From IMG/VR virus record IMGVR_UViG_3300030098_006079: 64,000 nucleotides of DNA; one strand, 5' to 3'. This DNA comes from a virus. Lineage: Duplodnaviria > Caudoviricetes. A program made the translations under genes and the position numbers. Of this stretch, positions 17,855 to 47,418 are shown one piece after another. Every line of letters starts with the position of its first letter. Position 1 is the first letter of the stretch. Below the pieces are notes generated by a model. It ran no database searches. It saw only the letters and a list, made by a program, of their open reading frames with translations, and was not told the origin of the DNA.

Positions 17855-17941
17855 GCCAGTGTGGTGAAATTGGCAAACACAACAGACTTAAAATCTGTCG
17901 CCCTTTTGGGCTTGTCGGTTCGAGTCCGACCACTGGTACCA
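17855..17941 (+). tRNA. trnL: tRNA-Leu(TAA)
   Basis: GCCAGTG/CACTGGT acceptor stem, acaga-CTTAAAA-tctgt anticodon arm, long variable arm, GTTCGA, encoded CCA. Confidence 0.97.
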
Positions 17942-19391: not shown

Positions 19392-19467
19392 GCCAGTTTA
19401 GCTCAGTTGGTAGAGCACTCGATTTGTAATCGAACGGTCGTCAGTTCGAATCTGACAACTGGCTCCA
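19392..19467 (+). tRNA. trnT: tRNA-Thr(TGT)
   Basis: 76-nt cloverleaf GCCAGTT/AACTGGC, loop TTTGTAA, GTTCGAA, CCA; C27-A43 mismatch. Confidence 0.95.
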
Positions 19468-25539: not shown

Positions 25540-26193
25540 ATGAGTAACAAAGTTAAACTTATATCCCTCACCCAGCCGTTCGATCATGAAGCAACTGAAT
25601 CTCCAGAAGACTTAATTGCATATTGTGCTCGAGTAAGTAATCCTGAAAATCAAAACAATACTCAAACAGCTCCTAGACTACTTAAGTTTCTAATAAAGCA
25701 CAAACATTGGTCACCATTTGAAATGGTTGACATGTGTGTAGAGATTAAAACATCAAGAGCTATTGCAGCTCAAATATTAAGACACAGAAGCTTTTCTTTT
25801 CAAGAATTCTCTCAACGTTATAGTGCTGCTACAGATATAGAGCCAATCGAATTAAGATCTAAAGCAGAGACTAATAGACAGAGTAGTTCGGATGTAATAG
25901 ATGATCCTGTACTTAAAAATGTCGTCCAGCATTCTATAGATACAGCAATGATGACTTATGATAAACTTATTACACAAGGTGTTGCTAAAGAGCAGGCTCG
26001 TATGGTGTTGCCATTAACAACTCAAACTACTATGTATATGAAAGGAAGTATTAGAAGCTGGATACATTATATTGATTTGAGAACAGAAGAAAACACACAG
26101 AAAGAGCATAGAGATATAGCAGAGGAGTGTAAGAGTATTCTTAAAGATCATTTCCCTAATGTTGCCGAAGCTCTCTGGAGTAAGGATGATTGA
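25540..26193 (+). CDS. thyX: Flavin-dependent thymidylate synthase
   Basis: ARVS, HWSPFE, QILRHRSFSFQEFSQRY, EQARMVLP, TQKEHR. Confidence 0.97.
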   Translation: MSNKVKLISLTQPFDHEATESPEDLIAYCARVSNPENQNNTQTAPRLLKFLIKHKHWSPFEMVDMCVEIKTSRAIAAQILRHRSFSFQEFSQRYSAATDIEPIELRSKAETNRQSSSDVIDDPVLKNVVQHSIDTAMMTYDKLITQGVAKEQARMVLPLTTQTTMYMKGSIRSWIHYIDLRTEENTQKEHRDIAEECKSILKDHFPNVAEALWSKDD

Positions 26194-43647: not shown

Positions 43648-43675
43648 TTATCCTCTCAGGATAATTTAATAATCA

Positions 43676-43706
43676 AGCTGGAGGGATATACTCTCCAGCT
43701 CTTTTT
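43676..43706 (+). terminator. Rho-independent terminator
   Basis: agctggag-ggatatact-ctccagct plus T tract. Confidence 0.75.
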
Positions 43707-43781
43707 ATAATCTCTACTATGATTCTACTTTACCCGGAGAGTTAGTAAAGAAAAAAAGTTTAATAAATCCGCAGAAAGCTG

Positions 43782-43826
43782 TTGACGTTTTCAGCTCGAG
43801 CTCTTATAATATTCGTGTTGTTAGAG
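43782..43826 (+). promoter_or_regulatory. Sigma70-like early promoter with conserved 16-nt element
   Basis: TTGACG-17-TATAAT-attcgtgttgttagag-ATG. Confidence 0.85.
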
Positions 43827-44129
43827 ATGATAGAGATCAAAGAAAAAATCGCTCGGGAAGCATATCAAGCTGGTAAGCAAGAAGGTGTGCGGATAGGTAT
43901 TGAAATGGGATTAGCTCATACCATAGAAGTTCTGAGCGCTGAGTTGCATCGTTATAAATTCCCAGAGGGTCATGAAAAGCGCTGGAATTATAAAATCGAT
44001 CAGCATCGTCCAGATGACAATTCGATGTTCGAGTTCAAGTATCAAAGGTATGAGGATCTTGTAAAAGAGCGCGAAGCTAATGAGCGCAGAGCACGAAAAA
44101 ATCGCGCGAGATCCAGAGATCGGCGATAA
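43827..44129 (+). CDS. Hypothetical early protein
   Basis: ATG after conserved element. Confidence 0.65.
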   Translation: MIEIKEKIAREAYQAGKQEGVRIGIEMGLAHTIEVLSAELHRYKFPEGHEKRWNYKIDQHRPDDNSMFEFKYQRYEDLVKEREANERRARKNRARSRDRR

Positions 44130-44230
44130 ACTGTTGTAGCTGCAACGGAAAAAAATCCGAAAAAACAGTTGCCGAAACCAGAGCGAGCCGCCATAATATT
44201 GGTGTTGTTGATAGAACGATAGAGAGAGAT

Positions 44231-44413
44231 ATGAAAGAAATCACATTTAATAAACGAGAAGCTAAAGCGCTTGAAGCGTTGGTTGAAATGCAAATTGAAA
44301 TGATTGAATCTGAAGGTGAGGATGTCATTGTTCAAGAGCCCGATTTGAGAAATGAATTAGAAGAGTTGCGGATGGTTCATTATAAAATGTTGAAATTCTT
44401 CCGTTTTAAATAA
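44231..44413 (+). CDS. Hypothetical early protein
   Basis: TTGCCG-17-CATAAT-attggtgttgtt promoter at 44169. Confidence 0.6.
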   Translation: MKEITFNKREAKALEALVEMQIEMIESEGEDVIVQEPDLRNELEELRMVHYKMLKFFRFK

Positions 44414-44461
44414 AGCGAAATAACAGTTGCACATCTCCGGAAAGCCACTATAATTACTTGT

Positions 44462-44617
44462 ATGAACGCTGATTGCGCCATGAAAATGACAGAGAAAGAG
44501 ATCGATAATCTAAAAGCTTGGAAGCGCTGGGGCGCATTAATGAAAATGCTCCGTGCTATCCATCGTGAAATTGAGCCGCTTCGTAAGGAGCGTCGTGAAG
44601 CAGAAGCTAGTCTTTAA
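44462..44617 (+). CDS. Hypothetical early peptide (51 aa)
   Basis: TTGCAC-16-TATAAT-7 nt-ATG. Confidence 0.55.
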   Translation: MNADCAMKMTEKEIDNLKAWKRWGALMKMLRAIHREIEPLRKERREAEASL

Positions 44618-44652
44618 ACCAATAACCATAACAGAAAGGAATTAATAATAAT

Positions 44653-45117
44653 ATGTCTAAGAAGAACCCAGCCCCAGTATTGAAATGTCTTATCTCTGGT
44701 CAATCCAGAAAGACTTCGCACAACTATCTCGCATCTAAAGCAACGCGCTTAGGTGTTACTAGTGAATGGTTGCTTAATAACTATGTAAGCAAGTATGTAT
44801 GTTCTCAACTTCGAGCTGGTCGTAACGTAAGCGATCTTGCTACTGATGGATGGTCTGGTACCGATGAGCAATTGAAAGAGCTCGTTCAGAAGAATAGTAA
44901 GAGCCGTGTAACTGACTTCTGGTTTGAGGCTGGTGTGTACAAGACCGCTAAGCCTACTCCTAAGAAGAAAGAAGAGAAGGTACAAACTCTTGATGATGTT
45001 GTACAAGTAACCGCTAGCGAGAGCGCGTTAGAGTCGATCGCTAAATCTACTCCAGAACCAGAACCAGAGCCAGCAACGTTCGATGAAGCGTTGGCTGAAT
45101 TACAAGAGCTTAACTAG
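44653..45117 (+). CDS. Hypothetical early protein
   Basis: 154-aa ORF ending before a terminator. Confidence 0.7.
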   Translation: MSKKNPAPVLKCLISGQSRKTSHNYLASKATRLGVTSEWLLNNYVSKYVCSQLRAGRNVSDLATDGWSGTDEQLKELVQKNSKSRVTDFWFEAGVYKTAKPTPKKKEEKVQTLDDVVQVTASESALESIAKSTPEPEPEPATFDEALAELQELN

Positions 45118-45137
45118 TTCATAATCACAACAACACG

Positions 45138-45162
45138 AAGCGCCCTACGGGGCGCTTTTTTT
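45138..45162 (+). terminator. Rho-independent terminator insulating the C-free cassette
   Basis: aagcgccc-TACG-gggcgctt plus T tract. Confidence 0.9.
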
Positions 45163-45199
45163 ATTAATAAAAAAAAGTTCAATAAAATGCATTTTTTTA

Positions 45200-45336
45200 T
45201 TGCATTTTTTCTCTCCAGATATTATAATATATTTTTGCATTTGAAAAACTGCAAATTTAAAATGAAAAATATGATAAAAAAAATAAAAAATAAAATGAAA
45301 AAAGTTCTGGAAATATTTTTGAATTTGATTTATAAT
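45200..45336 (+). promoter_or_regulatory. Three tandem sigma70-like promoters
   Basis: TTGCAT(45200)-17-TATAAT; TTGCAT(45235)-17-TAAAAT; TGGAAA(45308)-17-TATAAT(45331). Confidence 0.75.
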
Positions 45337-45381
45337 ATTTGTGTTTGTGAGAGAGTTAGAGTGAATAATAAAAATAATAAT

Positions 45382-45828
45382 ATGAAAAATAAAAAGTATG
45401 TTGTTGTGAGTGTTGGAGGAATGAATAGTGAGAATGAGAAATGGTTATGTGAATTTAGTAATTTAGATAATTGTTTTGATTATATTAATGAAAAAGTTAA
45501 TGAAGGTGAGATGTATAATAATGATGAAGAATTAGATAGAAATAATATATATTGGGATAGTAAAGAAGAATTAGATATATTTATAAATGATGAGTGGTAT
45601 GAATTATATAGAAAAGATGTTAAGTTAAATAAGGATGATGTTATTATTAATATGTGGTGTATAGGTGAGAGTAATATAGTATATGAAGTTGAGTATGATA
45701 TTAATAAGGGAGATGTAATTGATGGTAATGGTGAAGAAGGATGTGTAGTTGGATTTGATAATGATGAAGTATTATTATGGAATGATGGTGAGGGTTGGAG
45801 TAGTAAGTTGAGTGATTGTATAAAATAA
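45382..45828 (+). CDS. Acidic protein encoded with zero cytosines (148 aa)
   Basis: No P/A/T/H/Q; 36 D+E vs 14 K+R by hand count; leader AATAATAAAAATAATAAT. Confidence 0.8.
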   Translation: MKNKKYVVVSVGGMNSENEKWLCEFSNLDNCFDYINEKVNEGEMYNNDEELDRNNIYWDSKEELDIFINDEWYELYRKDVKLNKDDVIINMWCIGESNIVYEVEYDINKGDVIDGNGEEGCVVGFDNDEVLLWNDGEGWSSKLSDCIK

Positions 45829-45859
45829 AAGTATAGTATAGTATAATAATAAAAATAAT

Positions 45860-46228
45860 ATGAGTAATAGTTATAAAATAGTTAAGGTAGAATATAGTTT
45901 AGAAGAATATGGTATTAATAATATTGATGTTGTTAAGAGTGAGTTTGGTGTAGATGATGTTGTTAAAGGTGTATTTAAATATAAAGATGAATTGTATTAT
46001 GAAATTAAAATTATAGATGAGGAGAATGATATAGGAGTTTTAAGTTATGAAGATGAAAGTATATTATTAGTAATAGGTGATAAGAGTGAATGGTATAATA
46101 AAGTAGAGCAGTTTAATTTAGATAGTATAGAAAAGGAGGTTGATTTTAGTAATGGAGATTATAATGAAGAAGATTGGGATGATTGGGTAGAGTTTGTTTA
46201 TAGTATAATGATAAGAATAAAAGGATAG
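45860..46228 (+). CDS. Acidic protein encoded with one cytosine (122 aa)
   Basis: No P/A/T/H, one Q (CAG at 46109); 31 D+E vs 12 K+R; same A/T leader. Confidence 0.8.
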   Translation: MSNSYKIVKVEYSLEEYGINNIDVVKSEFGVDDVVKGVFKYKDELYYEIKIIDEENDIGVLSYEDESILLVIGDKSEWYNKVEQFNLDSIEKEVDFSNGDYNEEDWDDWVEFVYSIMIRIKG

Positions 46229-46241
46229 TATAGTATAGTTT

Positions 46242-46327
46242 GAGAGTATAGTATAGATATATATAGTATACTCTCTAGCTCTCTCTATATATAGGACTTA
46301 AGTACGAGAATCCGTTATATATAGAGA
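46242..46327. repeat. Two adjacent inverted repeats ending the C-free tract
   Basis: GAGAGTATA(46242)/TATACTCTC(46267); TCTCTATATATA(46282)/TATATATAGAGA(46316). Confidence 0.7.
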
Positions 46328-46363
46328 ACCCTGTAACCCGGGTCAGAAGGGCATGCAAAATTA

Positions 46364-46377
46364 TTTTTGCAAAACTC
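46364..46377. repeat. TTTTTGCAAAACTC motif, copy 2
   Basis: Left flank of the kinase-like gene. Confidence 0.7.
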
Positions 46378-46401
46378 TGATATAAATATCTATAAGGAAT
46401 T

Positions 46402-47052
46402 ATGAAATTTTTTGAAGAAGAATTGTCATCTACTGGGAAAAAAATACATTATAAAAAACATGTGCAACGCGGTTGGGGTAATGTAGTTACAGAAGTAGAG
46501 ATGTTACAAAACTTAGAAAAGTCATTTATCAACGAGCCAGAAATTAATCATTATCCTTTCCCTAAATACATCGATACTACAATATGTACAGAACATTTAG
46601 ATTATAATAATGGAGCTCATTCTACGTCTAACAAAAAAGAAGAACAAGGCCCGTGTTATATAATTACTATGAGTCATTGCGGTTATGATGCATATAAAAA
46701 TACAAAATATAATATCAAACCTATAAATTTGTATAACACTGTAAAATGTATTATCAATAATCTATATAATGTTGGTATAAAGCATACTAGTATAAAACCA
46801 CAAAATACTTGTATAAATGAATCCGGTGAAGTATCTTTAATAGATTTTGATTATTTTGATTATAAAAAGCAAAGTAAATTAGATATTATTTACAAAGAAC
46901 GTAGTATAGAAGAATTAAAGGAGATATTATTTACTAATAACGGTAATACATTTAAGGAAGAATTAAAAATAGTTCGAGAGTGTAAAGAATTACGAGATTT
47001 TGATCGGCGATTTAAGAAAGCCGGACCGTGGAGTATTTTATGTATGTTTTAA
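46402..47052 (+). CDS. Protein/LPS kinase-fold protein with degenerate catalytic loop
   Basis: K..E, FPK, HTSIKPQN (HxD Asp replaced by Ser), LIDFD. Confidence 0.65.
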   Translation: MKFFEEELSSTGKKIHYKKHVQRGWGNVVTEVEMLQNLEKSFINEPEINHYPFPKYIDTTICTEHLDYNNGAHSTSNKKEEQGPCYIITMSHCGYDAYKNTKYNIKPINLYNTVKCIINNLYNVGIKHTSIKPQNTCINESGEVSLIDFDYFDYKKQSKLDIIYKERSIEELKEILFTNNGNTFKEELKIVRECKELRDFDRRFKKAGPWSILCMF

Positions 47053-47054
47053 TT

Positions 47055-47068
47055 TTTTTGCAAAACTC
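47055..47068. repeat. TTTTTGCAAAACTC motif, copy 3
   Basis: Right flank of the kinase-like gene; flanks resemble copy 1 (AATTTTTTTGCAAAACTC..GGAG). Confidence 0.7.
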
Positions 47069-47190
47069 TGCGGAGTTCTTATAATAGGTTTTAATGCACG
47101 TCGACCGAGCAAGTGAACGGAGTGGTCTGCAAAACCATCTATGCAGGGGGCGGTACCCTGGGCGTGCTCCAATTTCTTATAAATACTTAC

Positions 47191-47418
47191 ATGGCTGATC
47201 GTGATGAAAAGAACAAAGAGAATGTAGAAGGTAAGTATTATGTAGATGAGCAGTGTATTGACTGTGATTTATGTAGAGAGGAGGCTCCGAATAATTTTAC
47301 TAGAGAAGATAATGAAGGTTATTCCTATGTATATAAGCAGCCAGAGAATGATCTAGAGGAAGAGATGTGTCAGAGTGCATTAGACAATTGTCCCGTTGAA
47401 GCTATAGGTAATGACTGA
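47191..47418 (+). CDS. Single-cluster 4Fe-4S ferredoxin
   Basis: CIDCDLC..APNNF..CPVEAI; TATAAATA-CTTAC-ATG. Confidence 0.92.
   Translation: MADRDEKNKENVEGKYYVDEQCIDCDLCREEAPNNFTREDNEGYSYVYKQPENDLEEEMCQSALDNCPVEAIGND

What the first reader, a model, noticed from the sequence alone, without database searches (positions are those of the whole stretch)
45200..46228. The C-free genes encode very acidic, reduced-alphabet proteins behind three tandem promoters (Ocr-like layout)
Seen: the 148-aa protein has 36 D/E vs 14 K/R (net about -22) and uses 15 amino acids. The 122-aa protein has 31 D/E vs 12 K/R (net about -19). Both are rich in Y, W, V and I and share the leader AATAATAAAAATAATA(A)TATG. 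Upstream are three sigma70-like promoters (45200, 45235, 45308), insulated by a strong terminator (45138). Established: T7 places the acidic DNA mimic Ocr directly behind its three tandem early promoters A1-A3, and ArdA and other DNA mimics are similarly acidic. Inference: these are immediate-early DNA-mimic or anti-defence proteins, and the C-free coding lets them be made before the defence they block takes effect.
Basis: partly seen in the sequence, partly recalled or inferred. Interest (0 to 1): 0.82.

Follow-up and report, generated by a model that had tools for sequence, protein, structure and literature searches.

The report
Cytosine-free operon encoding acidic phage proteins
An uncultured marine T4-like phage carries a small early operon whose message has almost no cytosine, so its two folded, very acidic proteins use only 15 amino acids; hundreds of ocean relatives keep this property, I found no description of it in print, and the proteins show no detectable likeness to known DNA mimics.

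Summary
g1 (45382-45828, 148 aa) has 36 D/E against 14 K/R. g2 (45860-46228, 122 aa) has 31 against 12. Both lack A, P, H and T, and Q occurs once, because positions 45253-46270 hold only 2 C in 1018 nt.

The acidity is selected, not a codon by-product. Random C-free ORFs of the same base composition average net +10/+11, and remote normal-alphabet g2 homologues are acidic too.

C-exclusion acts at the nucleotide level:
- About 49 C-containing synonymous codons are expected and 1 is seen.
- The non-coding parts are also C-free.
- Of 48 metagenome loci, 34 have C-free runs of 395-1396 nt.
- Genes are shuffled within the cassette, and extra small acidic genes that join it are also C-free.
- The tract runs from a covarying hairpin behind one conserved promoter to a 3' hairpin.
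- C-depletion follows the g2 family into unrelated phage backgrounds.

Only one of the three promoters is conserved. The g2 model (pLDDT 81) is a small alpha/beta fold with no significant match, so it is not Ocr- or ArdA-like. DNA mimicry is unsupported but not excluded.

My best reading is that the message is built to escape a factor that reads unpaired C in RNA, and that its products bind basic proteins. The mechanism is inferred. This scan has noted cytosine-free genes in other viral genomes before.

The parts
45137..45166 (+). Intrinsic terminator of the upstream 154-aa gene. It insulates the cassette.
   Evidence: 9-bp, GC-rich stem followed by a T run. The same element precedes the cassette in relatives.
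45200..45228 (+). P1, the conserved promoter of the cassette (TTGCAT-17-TATAAT).
   Evidence: Kept as CTTGCA-17-TATAAT in essentially all related loci. The pattern TTGCA-N17-19-TAWAAT occurs 8 times in the window against 0.9 expected.
45234..45255 (+). Conserved hairpin just downstream of the P1 -10 box. The C-free tract starts right after its last C.
Evidence: It folds in all 16 distinct lineages (-2.4 to -8.0 kcal/mol) with four different stem sequences. These include a C-G to A-U double change (L046) and a G.U pair (L024).
45262..45381 (+). C-poor leader containing P3 (45308-45336). It is in frame with g1 and homologous to a separate 33-aa basic, hydrophobic mini-ORF in relatives.
   Evidence: P3 and this roughly 110-nt segment are absent from L009- and L014-type relatives. 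It holds one C (45307).
45382..45828 (+). g1: 148-aa acidic protein (net -22) with a 15-letter alphabet.
   Evidence: There are 78 homologues down to about 30% identity, with 54 A/P/H/Q/T among 11,956 residues. The AF2 model is poor overall (pLDDT 57) but has a C-terminal beta domain at about 80. That domain also occurs as a stand-alone gene of 62-68 aa in relatives.
45829..45859 (+). Intergenic spacer with an AGTATAGTATA repeat (TAG in all three frames) and an AAUAAU leader.
   Evidence: The motif follows each cassette gene in relatives.
45860..46228 (+). g2: 122-aa acidic protein (net -19). It holds the single C of the coding part, at 46109 (Gln84).
   Evidence: 330 homologues. Of the 120 listed, 67 have no A/P/H/Q/T and 48 have one. 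The AF2 model has pLDDT 81 and pTM 0.77. Remote homologues with a normal alphabet exist.
46237..46327 (+). Two 3' hairpins. The first C residues after the tract lie in the descending arm of the first hairpin.
   Evidence: MFE -39.4 kcal/mol, z -3.3 against shuffles. The same GAGAGTATA...TATACTCTC arms occur in relatives. There is no U tract, so termination is inferred.

Best explanation
This is a self-contained operon of an uncultured marine T4-like phage clade, probably expressed early. Its sense strand is kept free of cytosine by selection acting on the transcript or on its synthesis. Neither protein needs nor tRNA supply explains the pattern.

The operon works as a modular slot. g2 is always present. 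It comes with g1 or only the C-terminal domain of g1. Sometimes a 33-aa mini-ORF and up to three further small acidic genes are added. All of them are written without C.

The g2 family is older than this habit. It has members with ordinary alphabets, and it became C-poor or C-free in several phage backgrounds. The 15-letter alphabet is therefore a side effect of the nucleotide constraint. The strong negative charge is a selected property of the proteins themselves.

The mechanism I think most likely is inferred, not shown. The message is made unreadable to a factor that needs unpaired C in RNA, so it is still completed and translated when ordinary messages are not. The acidic products then bind basic, nucleic-acid-binding host or defence proteins.

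My odds for the C-reading factor are:
- About 35%: a C-dependent attack on RNA. This could be sequence-specific endoribonuclease toxins of the MazF type, which cut single-stranded RNA, or a chain-terminating CTP analogue.
- About 20%: transcription terminator Rho, which loads on YC dinucleotides.
For: Shown:
- Only 2 C in 1018 nt, against 16% C in the window.
- Given the amino-acid sequences, 26.9 + 22.5 C-containing synonymous codons are expected and 1 is seen. The 202 non-coding nt hold 1 C.
- Of 48 metagenome loci, 34 have strict C-free runs of 395-1396 nt, always on the sense strand.
- Gene order is swapped between lineages, and extra unrelated genes in the cassette are also C-free.
- The tract begins right after the last C of a covarying hairpin behind the conserved promoter and ends in the loop of a 3' hairpin. 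The C residues left at the two ends are therefore mostly base-paired.
- g2 relatives form a graded series. C is 17%, 13.5% and 12.5% in normal members. It is 2.7% in L068, where neighbouring genes have 12-21% C and each gene has its own promoter. It is 1.5-2.3% in L018 and L061, and 0% in L067 and the main clade.
- Acidity: random C-free ORFs average net +10/+11, and 0 of 5000 reach the observed charge. Normal-alphabet homologues have net -7 to -15.
- g2 folds with confidence.
- In run X4 the deepest contig of the stretch (depth 164) lies on g1, further contigs lie on g1 and g2, and none lies on 43650-45300. Three other RNA runs also have pieces on the cassette.

From the literature:
- Rho reads up to six YC dinucleotides, and sense strands avoid C>G to escape it (PMC13323073).
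- MazF-type toxins cut only single-stranded RNA at short motifs. ACA-less messages escape E. coli MazF (PMC5408214, PMC9102682).
Against: - No C-directed factor was identified. The host is unknown and the whole phage genome is not held.
- Other early-type units of the same phage have ordinary C.
- Isolated C residues are tolerated in many contexts, including one ACA, so no single motif is being avoided.
- If P1 is the start point, the RNA begins with 2-4 C. Strictly CTP-free synthesis is then excluded in most lineages.
- Rho should not need total exclusion of C. It is also unlikely to act on the roughly 370-nt single-gene unit of L068.
- C is the only base an ORF can lack entirely, because start and stop codons need A, G and T. 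The choice of C therefore does not prove a C-specific cause.
- Timing and the transcription start are inferred from motifs only. The RNA evidence comes from assembled contigs, not reads.
- An earlier case of this kind in the scan (e1-895147) was later priced low for the defence reading.
Confidence: 0.5

Rival explanations
1. g1 and g2 are immediate-early DNA mimics of the Ocr or ArdA type. They block DNA-targeting defences such as type I restriction or BREX, and sit behind tandem promoters as T7 gene 0.3 does.
For: - Net charge per residue is -0.15/-0.16, the most acidic in the window. From memory this is in the range of known mimics.
- The proteins are small and lie in a promoter-proximal unit.
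- One weak language-model lead points to a cluster in which some members carry the T7 Gp5.9 family, at rank 36 with score 0.81.
Against: - No Pfam, PHROG or PDB sequence match.
- The g2 model is a compact alpha/beta fold with no significant neighbour. Ocr and ArdA do not appear among the hits.
- Atlas scores under 0.9 are at chance level.
- Only one promoter is conserved.
- DNA mimics share no common fold, so absence of a match does not exclude mimicry.
Confidence: 0.12
2. C-exclusion serves expression as such. A three-letter A/G/U message can form only A-U and G-U pairs, so it is almost free of structure. All its start sites stay open in a host that initiates without Shine-Dalgarno pairing, and it does not draw on CTP, usually the scarcest NTP. 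For the most heavily expressed early genes, each C carries a small cost, and the very large populations of marine phages let selection remove them all.
For: - Predicted folding energy is -0.097 kcal/mol per nt in the cassette, against -0.193 +/- 0.042 in 81 other windows of the region. Changing half the G to C raises it to -0.134.
- The phage hardly uses SD sites.
- C is the only base that can be dropped from an ORF.
- The graded series among relatives fits a cost per C.
- A high-depth RNA contig lies on g1.
Against: - Open start sites need only local lack of structure, not about 1 kb without C.
- Other early genes are not depleted.
- G is raised to 26%, so structure is not minimised in every way.
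- Stable hairpins are kept at both ends.
Confidence: 0.2
3. The constraint lies in the DNA. A strand without C cannot carry any recognition site that has both G and C on one strand, which covers almost all restriction and many modification sites. Alternatively, the G-free template strand carries none of the phage's modified guanine. First-stage notes report queC and queD genes elsewhere in this genome.
For: - Any palindromic site containing G or C is impossible in the tract. This follows from the sequence.
- Unchecked first-stage notes on deazaguanine genes.
Against: - Protecting 1 kb does not save a 200-kb genome from restriction.
- The missing base is always on the sense strand, and the tract ends at transcript landmarks.
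- All other genes are transcribed from G-containing templates.
- The deazaguanine genes were not checked here.
Confidence: 0.08

Closest known systems
T7 Ocr (gene 0.3) behind early promoters A1-A3, and other acidic DNA mimics (ArdA, T4 Arn, T7 Gp5.9)
   Same: Small, very acidic, promoter-proximal phage proteins with no enzymatic motifs.
   Different: No sequence or fold likeness was found. Only one promoter is conserved. From general knowledge, a T4-like genome has no fixed leading end. None of the known mimics is reported to be encoded without C (own knowledge).
Purine (G>C) bias of sense strands that protects nascent RNA from Rho (PMC13323073)
   Same: Strand-specific removal of C from the message. 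Rho loads on YC dinucleotides, and there are none in the unpaired body of this RNA.
   Different: The known case is a genome-wide quantitative bias. Here a single operon is taken to zero C at the price of five amino acids, while neighbouring units are ordinary. The message is still 34% U.
ACA-less messages that survive MazF (single-protein-production system; PMC9102682, PMC5408214)
   Same: A message is made immune to a single-strand-specific endoribonuclease by removing its recognition motif. The C residues that remain here are mostly in stems.
   Different: The known case is engineered and removes one trinucleotide. Here a natural operon removes a whole base, and no toxin has been identified.
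G-less and C-less cassettes used for in vitro transcription (own knowledge)
   Same: A transcription unit that can be completed with three NTPs. From P3 this lineage's RNA would be C-free up to 46109.
   Different: Those are artificial and non-coding. In most relatives the RNA would start with a hairpin that contains C.
Cytosine-free genes noted earlier in this scan in other viral genomes (e1-895147, e1-3262486, e1-1999131, e1-1968689)
   Same: Sense-strand C-exclusion in viral early or accessory genes. It is maintained in relatives, and those follow-ups also found it undescribed in the searchable literature.
   Different: These are unrelated proteins and hosts. Here the trait can be followed through one protein family, from normal to zero C, and through a modular multi-gene cassette.

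Membership tests
Ocr (T7 gene 0.3 protein, DNA mimic) | Sequence membership in the Ocr family | tested here: not met
   No Pfam hit for g1 or g2, or for 21 g2-family members at E up to 1. No PDB sequence hit with profiles A2 and A3.
Ocr (T7 gene 0.3 protein, DNA mimic) | All-helical fold whose dimer imitates bent B-DNA | tested here: not met
   The g2 model (pLDDT 81) is a beta-beta-alpha-beta-beta-beta fold plus a helix. Ocr does not appear among the PDB matches. The g1 model is too poor to judge.
Ocr (T7 gene 0.3 protein, DNA mimic) | Binds and blocks type I restriction enzymes or BREX | not testable with these tools
   Needs biochemistry or plating assays.
ArdA anti-restriction proteins | ArdA family sequence and three-domain elongated fold | tested here: not met
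   No Pfam or PDB match. No structural match.
T7 Gp5.9 (RecBCD inhibitor) | Match to the Phage_T7_Gp5_9 family | tested here: not met
   The only lead is a feature hit at rank 36 with score 0.81, which is chance level. Pfam scans did not report the family.
Sigma70-type early transcription unit of a T4-like phage | Conserved -35/-10 promoter, own terminator upstream, no T4-late TATAAATA box | tested here: met
   P1 is conserved in relatives and belongs to a motif enriched 8 against 0.9 in the window. The terminator is at 45137. The nearest TATAAATA box lies downstream, in front of the next gene. Timing itself was not measured.
Rho-avoiding sense strand (purine or G>C bias) | C below G on the sense strand and no run of YC dinucleotides | tested here: met
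   GC skew is about +1 across the tract, with 0-2 C.
Rho-avoiding sense strand (purine or G>C bias) | Expression depends on the bias only when the host Rho is active | not testable with these tools
   The host is unknown. Needs reporter assays with and without bicyclomycin or a rho mutant.
Endoribonuclease-resistant (motif-less) message | Absence of toxin recognition motifs in single-stranded parts | tested here: met
   There is no ACA, ACY, GCU or UAC in the window's cassette because it has no C apart from one GCA at 46109. End C residues are mostly paired. One relative tolerates an ACA.
Endoribonuclease-resistant (motif-less) message | Message survives an identified toxin of the host | not testable with these tools
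   No host or toxin is known.

The most novel reading that the evidence does not exclude
The cassette is a protected expression platform for counter-defence. Its RNA cannot be cut or chain-terminated by immunity that works through cytosine, such as C-requiring endoribonuclease toxins or viperin-made ddhCTP. Its acidic products, above all the g2 family, neutralise that immunity by mimicking nucleic acid or an antitoxin. Phages have repeatedly recoded this gene family, and moved further small inhibitors into the same slot, for that reason.
Probability: 0.25. Interest if true: 0.92.

Novelty: new variant of a known kind. Interest (0 to 1): 0.78.

Why it matters
- It would be a natural case in which selection on the nucleic acid overrides the protein alphabet. 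Two folded proteins, and further small ones in relatives, get by without Ala, Pro, His, Gln and Thr across hundreds of variants. That is a ready-made data set for reduced-alphabet protein evolution and design.
- Total exclusion of one base from an operon points to a cellular or viral activity that reads cytosine in RNA. It could be Rho, ribonuclease toxins, nucleotide-analogue immunity or something unknown. Such an activity would have to be strong enough in the ocean to shape abundant phages.
- The trait can be followed from 17% to 0% C within one gene family. The cassette is only 1 kb. The question can therefore be tested directly by recoding.
- The cassette may also mark unknown counter-defence proteins.

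Tried and rejected
- Cultured phages. No DNA match (blastn, megablast) and no tblastn match for g1, g2 or a 915-aa structural protein in 50,697 phage records. A DUF932 neighbour gave only distant hits under 27% identity.
- Whole genome. It is not held, and the record behind L001 cannot be searched. I could not check for psbA, modification genes, or whether the host has Rho.
- g1 against g2. Profile comparison shows they are not paralogues (probability 0.3%).
- Complex of g1 with g2. Complex prediction scored 0.00 and gave no verdict, so it counts neither for nor against binding.
- g1 structure. The model is too poor (pLDDT 57) to search, and both fold jobs are used.
- Fold searches for g2. PDB, BFVD, AFDB clusters, the Atlas and VIA wide gave only chance-level rows. 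These included AcrIE2 at Z 3.4 and phi29 p6 at Z 3.5.
- IMG/VR. The scan returned one partial locus.
- RNAalifold. It found no consensus for the 5' hairpin because the stems are shifted between lineages in the alignment. Single-sequence folds show the hairpin.
- Literature. Searches for cytosine-free or cytosine-less phage genes and for anti-viperin found nothing relevant.
- Rejected: acidity as a codon artefact.
- Rejected: an explanation by tRNA supply or amino-acid preference, because non-coding parts and synonymous sites are equally C-free.
- Rejected: an assembly artefact, because the same tract appears in independent ENA, JGI, Tara and Logan assemblies.

Full report
**What is there.** The window is part of a contig of about 202 kb. 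The contig was assembled independently from Tara and other ocean metagenomes. First-stage notes describe it as T4-like, and T4-late TATAAATA boxes are visible, for example in front of the gene at 46402. Nothing like it is in 50,697 cultured-phage records. On the + strand, 45308-46270 contains one C (46109). From 45253 there are two C in 1018 nt. C is 16% of the window, and the next longest C-free run is 60 nt. The tract holds two ORFs: g1 (45382-45828, 148 aa) and g2 (45860-46228, 122 aa).

**Check of the observation.** g1 has 36 D/E against 14 K/R, and g2 has 31 against 12. Each uses 15 residue types, and V, I, Y and W are enriched. The 15-letter alphabet follows from the coding, because A, P, H, Q and T have only codons that contain C. 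The single Gln of g2 is the single C.

The shared AAUAAU-rich leader is real. It is an extended form of the A/T-rich leader without a Shine-Dalgarno site that this phage uses almost everywhere (7 of 38 genes have a loose SD). The terminator at 45137 is found.

The three promoter-like sites exist. A generic promoter scan is not above chance here (17 against 12.5 +/- 3.3). What does stand out is the phage's own motif, TTGCA-N17-19-TAWAAT, with 8 copies against 0.9 expected. P1 and P2 are two of those copies.

**Is acidity a by-product?** No. Random C-free ORFs with the same base composition have a mean net charge of +11.2 (sd 6.7) for g1 and +10.2 (sd 6.0) for g2. None of 5000 reaches -22 or -19. 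g1 and g2 are the most acidic ORFs of the window. Remote g2 homologues that use all 20 amino acids are acidic as well, at net -7 to -15.

**Is C-exclusion selected, and at which level?** Given the amino-acid sequences and the phage's codon usage elsewhere, 26.9 and 22.5 C-containing synonymous codons are expected in g1 and g2. The observed numbers are 0 and 1 (log10 P about -15 and -13). The 202 non-coding nt of the tract hold one C. The constraint therefore acts on nucleotides, not on amino acids or tRNAs.

- g2 has 330 homologues. Of the 120 listed, 67 have no A/P/H/Q/T and 48 have exactly one.
- g1 has 78 homologues down to about 30% identity, with 54 such residues in 11,956.
- At the DNA level, 34 of 48 metagenome loci have strict C-free runs of 395-1396 nt, always on the sense strand.

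**The cassette is modular.** The order is g1-g2 in the window and L014, and g2-g1 in L009-L013. Longer versions add a 33-aa basic, hydrophobic mini-ORF. In the window's lineage this is fused in frame to g1 as a possible N-terminal extension. They also add a helical acidic gene of about 65 aa, a 49-aa gene and a 55-aa gene, all written with 0-3 C. Shorter versions keep g2 plus only the C-terminal beta domain of g1, as a separate gene of 62-68 aa. g1 and g2 are not paralogues.

**Boundaries.** In every lineage the tract starts directly after the last C of a hairpin that follows the -10 box of one conserved promoter (CTTGCA-17-TATAAT, P1 in the window). The hairpin is kept with four different stem sequences. 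These include a C-G to A-U double change and a G.U pair, which favours an RNA structure. RNAalifold failed only because the stems are shifted in the alignment. P3 lies in an insertion of about 110 nt restricted to this sub-lineage. From P3 the RNA would be C-free from its first base. At the 3' end the first C residues lie in the descending arm of the first of two strong hairpins. In some relatives the tract instead fades into a further C-poor gene. So the C residues that remain at the ends are mostly base-paired. Isolated C residues inside the tract are tolerated in several contexts (GCA five times; ACA, UCU, ACU, ACG and GCU), near either end.

**Evolution of the trait.** An exhaustive profile search found remote g2 homologues with ordinary alphabets. 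Their genes have ordinary C: 13.5%, 12.5% and 17%.

- In the L018/L061 group the g2-like gene has 1.5-2.3% C and the small g1C-like gene 2.9-3.6%. Flanking genes have 12-17%.
- In L068 the phage background is different. Each small gene has its own promoter placed about 6 nt before the ATG. There the g2-like gene has 2.7% C and its neighbours 12-21%.
- In L067 a 28-35% identical homologue sits in another C-free tract with 35% G.

The family is thus older than the habit, and C-depletion follows this gene family across backgrounds. Both points argue that the reason is tied to when or how these genes must be expressed.

**Expression.** Contigs from four marine RNA libraries lie on g1 and g2. In run X4 the deepest contig of the 4.5-kb stretch (depth 164) is on g1, and none lies on 43650-45300. 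Contigs cannot show starts or levels, so this is only consistent with strong transcription.

**The proteins.** The g2 model is confident (pLDDT 81, pTM 0.77). It has two strands, a helix, three strands, an acidic low-confidence loop and a long C-terminal amphipathic helix. No library gives a significant neighbour:
- PDB Foldseek best E 0.14.
- VIA wide best Z 4.2, below the usual noise.
- BFVD E 2e-3 with TM under 0.5, to small unnamed phage proteins.
- AFDB clusters and the Atlas likewise.

Pfam, PHROGs and PDB profile searches are empty. A feature search gave only sub-threshold leads, one of them to a cluster partly annotated as T7 Gp5.9. The g1 model is poor apart from its C-terminal beta domain. 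A g1+g2 complex prediction gave no verdict. Nothing links the proteins to Ocr, ArdA or any other known mimic. Mimics share no fold, so mimicry is unsupported rather than refuted.

**How it most likely works.** The cause acts on the sense strand of a transcription unit. It spares paired positions, has a cost per C (graded series, tolerated singles), and is specific to this gene set.

1. I put about 55% on escape from a factor that must read unpaired C in RNA.
   - About 35% of this goes to a C-dependent attack. One form is endoribonuclease toxins of the MazF type, which cut only single-stranded RNA at short motifs that I recall mostly contain C (PMC5408214). ACA-less messages escape E. coli MazF (PMC9102682). 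The other form is a chain-terminating CTP analogue.
   - About 20% goes to Rho, which loads on YC dinucleotides. Rho already explains milder sense-strand C avoidance (PMC13323073).
   - Rho fits the strand and the pairing rule. It does not fit the need for zero C, the ordinary neighbouring early units, or the 370-nt single-gene unit of L068.
2. A structure-free, CTP-sparing message for very high expression gets about 20%. The cassette is the least structured RNA of the region (-0.097 against -0.193 kcal/mol per nt).
3. DNA-level explanations get about 8%.

One caution applies to all of these. C is the only base an ORF can lack, because start and stop codons need A, G and T. The choice of C is therefore not in itself evidence for a C-specific agent.

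The acidic products most plausibly bind basic, nucleic-acid-binding proteins. That is an inference from charge alone.

**Novelty.** I found no description of natural genes or operons that exclude a base in the searchable literature. This scan has noted cytosine-free genes in other viral genomes before, and one defence reading was later priced low. What this case adds is a whole modular cassette, hundreds of variants, and one protein family in which the transition from normal to zero C can be followed.

Noticed in passing
window 46340-47090: The 216-aa gene (46402-47052, weak protein-kinase hit, E 6e-4) is an optional insert. It is absent from L003 and L014, carries a T4-late TATAAATA box at about 46381, and is flanked by two copies of a TGCAAAA...TTTTGCAAAACTCTG element. 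The second copy forms the promoter of the ferredoxin gene.
   Followed up: partly
window 26841, 33876, 44427, 45200, 45235, 47058 (+) and 47063, 50493 (-): TTGCA-N17-19-TAWAAT occurs 8 times against 0.9 expected. It is probably this phage's early promoter type.
   Followed up: partly
whole window, 38 gene starts: Only 7 of 38 genes have even a loose Shine-Dalgarno match. The leaders are A/T-rich (AAATAATTAT-like). This suggests a host that initiates translation without SD pairing.
   Followed up: no
window 45830-45845, 46227-46255, and after each cassette gene in L009, L014, L042: The AGTATAGTATA repeat follows the stop codon of each cassette gene. It puts TAG in all three frames and forms part of the 3' hairpin arm.
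   Followed up: no
promoter region of L027, L031, L050 and others; window 45206-45255: A short element inside the promoter spacer is repeated downstream of the -10 box as the 3' arm of the hairpin. Both copies change together between lineages (GCAAT, AAATGCAT, GGAAAAGCA). This may be an operator for a phage regulator, in addition to the RNA hairpin.
   Followed up: no
window 44653-45117; L042 1402-1851; L018 10428-10874: A protein of about 150 aa with a basic N-terminus and an acidic tail always neighbours the cassette, upstream or downstream. It has no family match and could be the cassette's regulator.
   Followed up: no
L068 4960-5570: In this unrelated phage contig each small gene has its own CTTG...-17-TATACT or CATAAT box about 6 nt before the ATG. 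These look like leaderless single-gene units.
   Followed up: partly
window 45262-45381; L042 2012-2113: A 33-aa mini-ORF (MSKVKSKVK plus a hydrophobic stretch) opens the cassette in many relatives. In the window's lineage its remnant is in frame with g1, so gene callers predict 188-216 aa products.
   Followed up: partly
window 17855-17941, 19392-19467, 25540-26193, 47113-47418: tRNA-Leu(TAA) and tRNA-Thr(TGT) genes, a ThyX thymidylate synthase and a single-cluster 4Fe-4S ferredoxin lie in the window.
   Followed up: no
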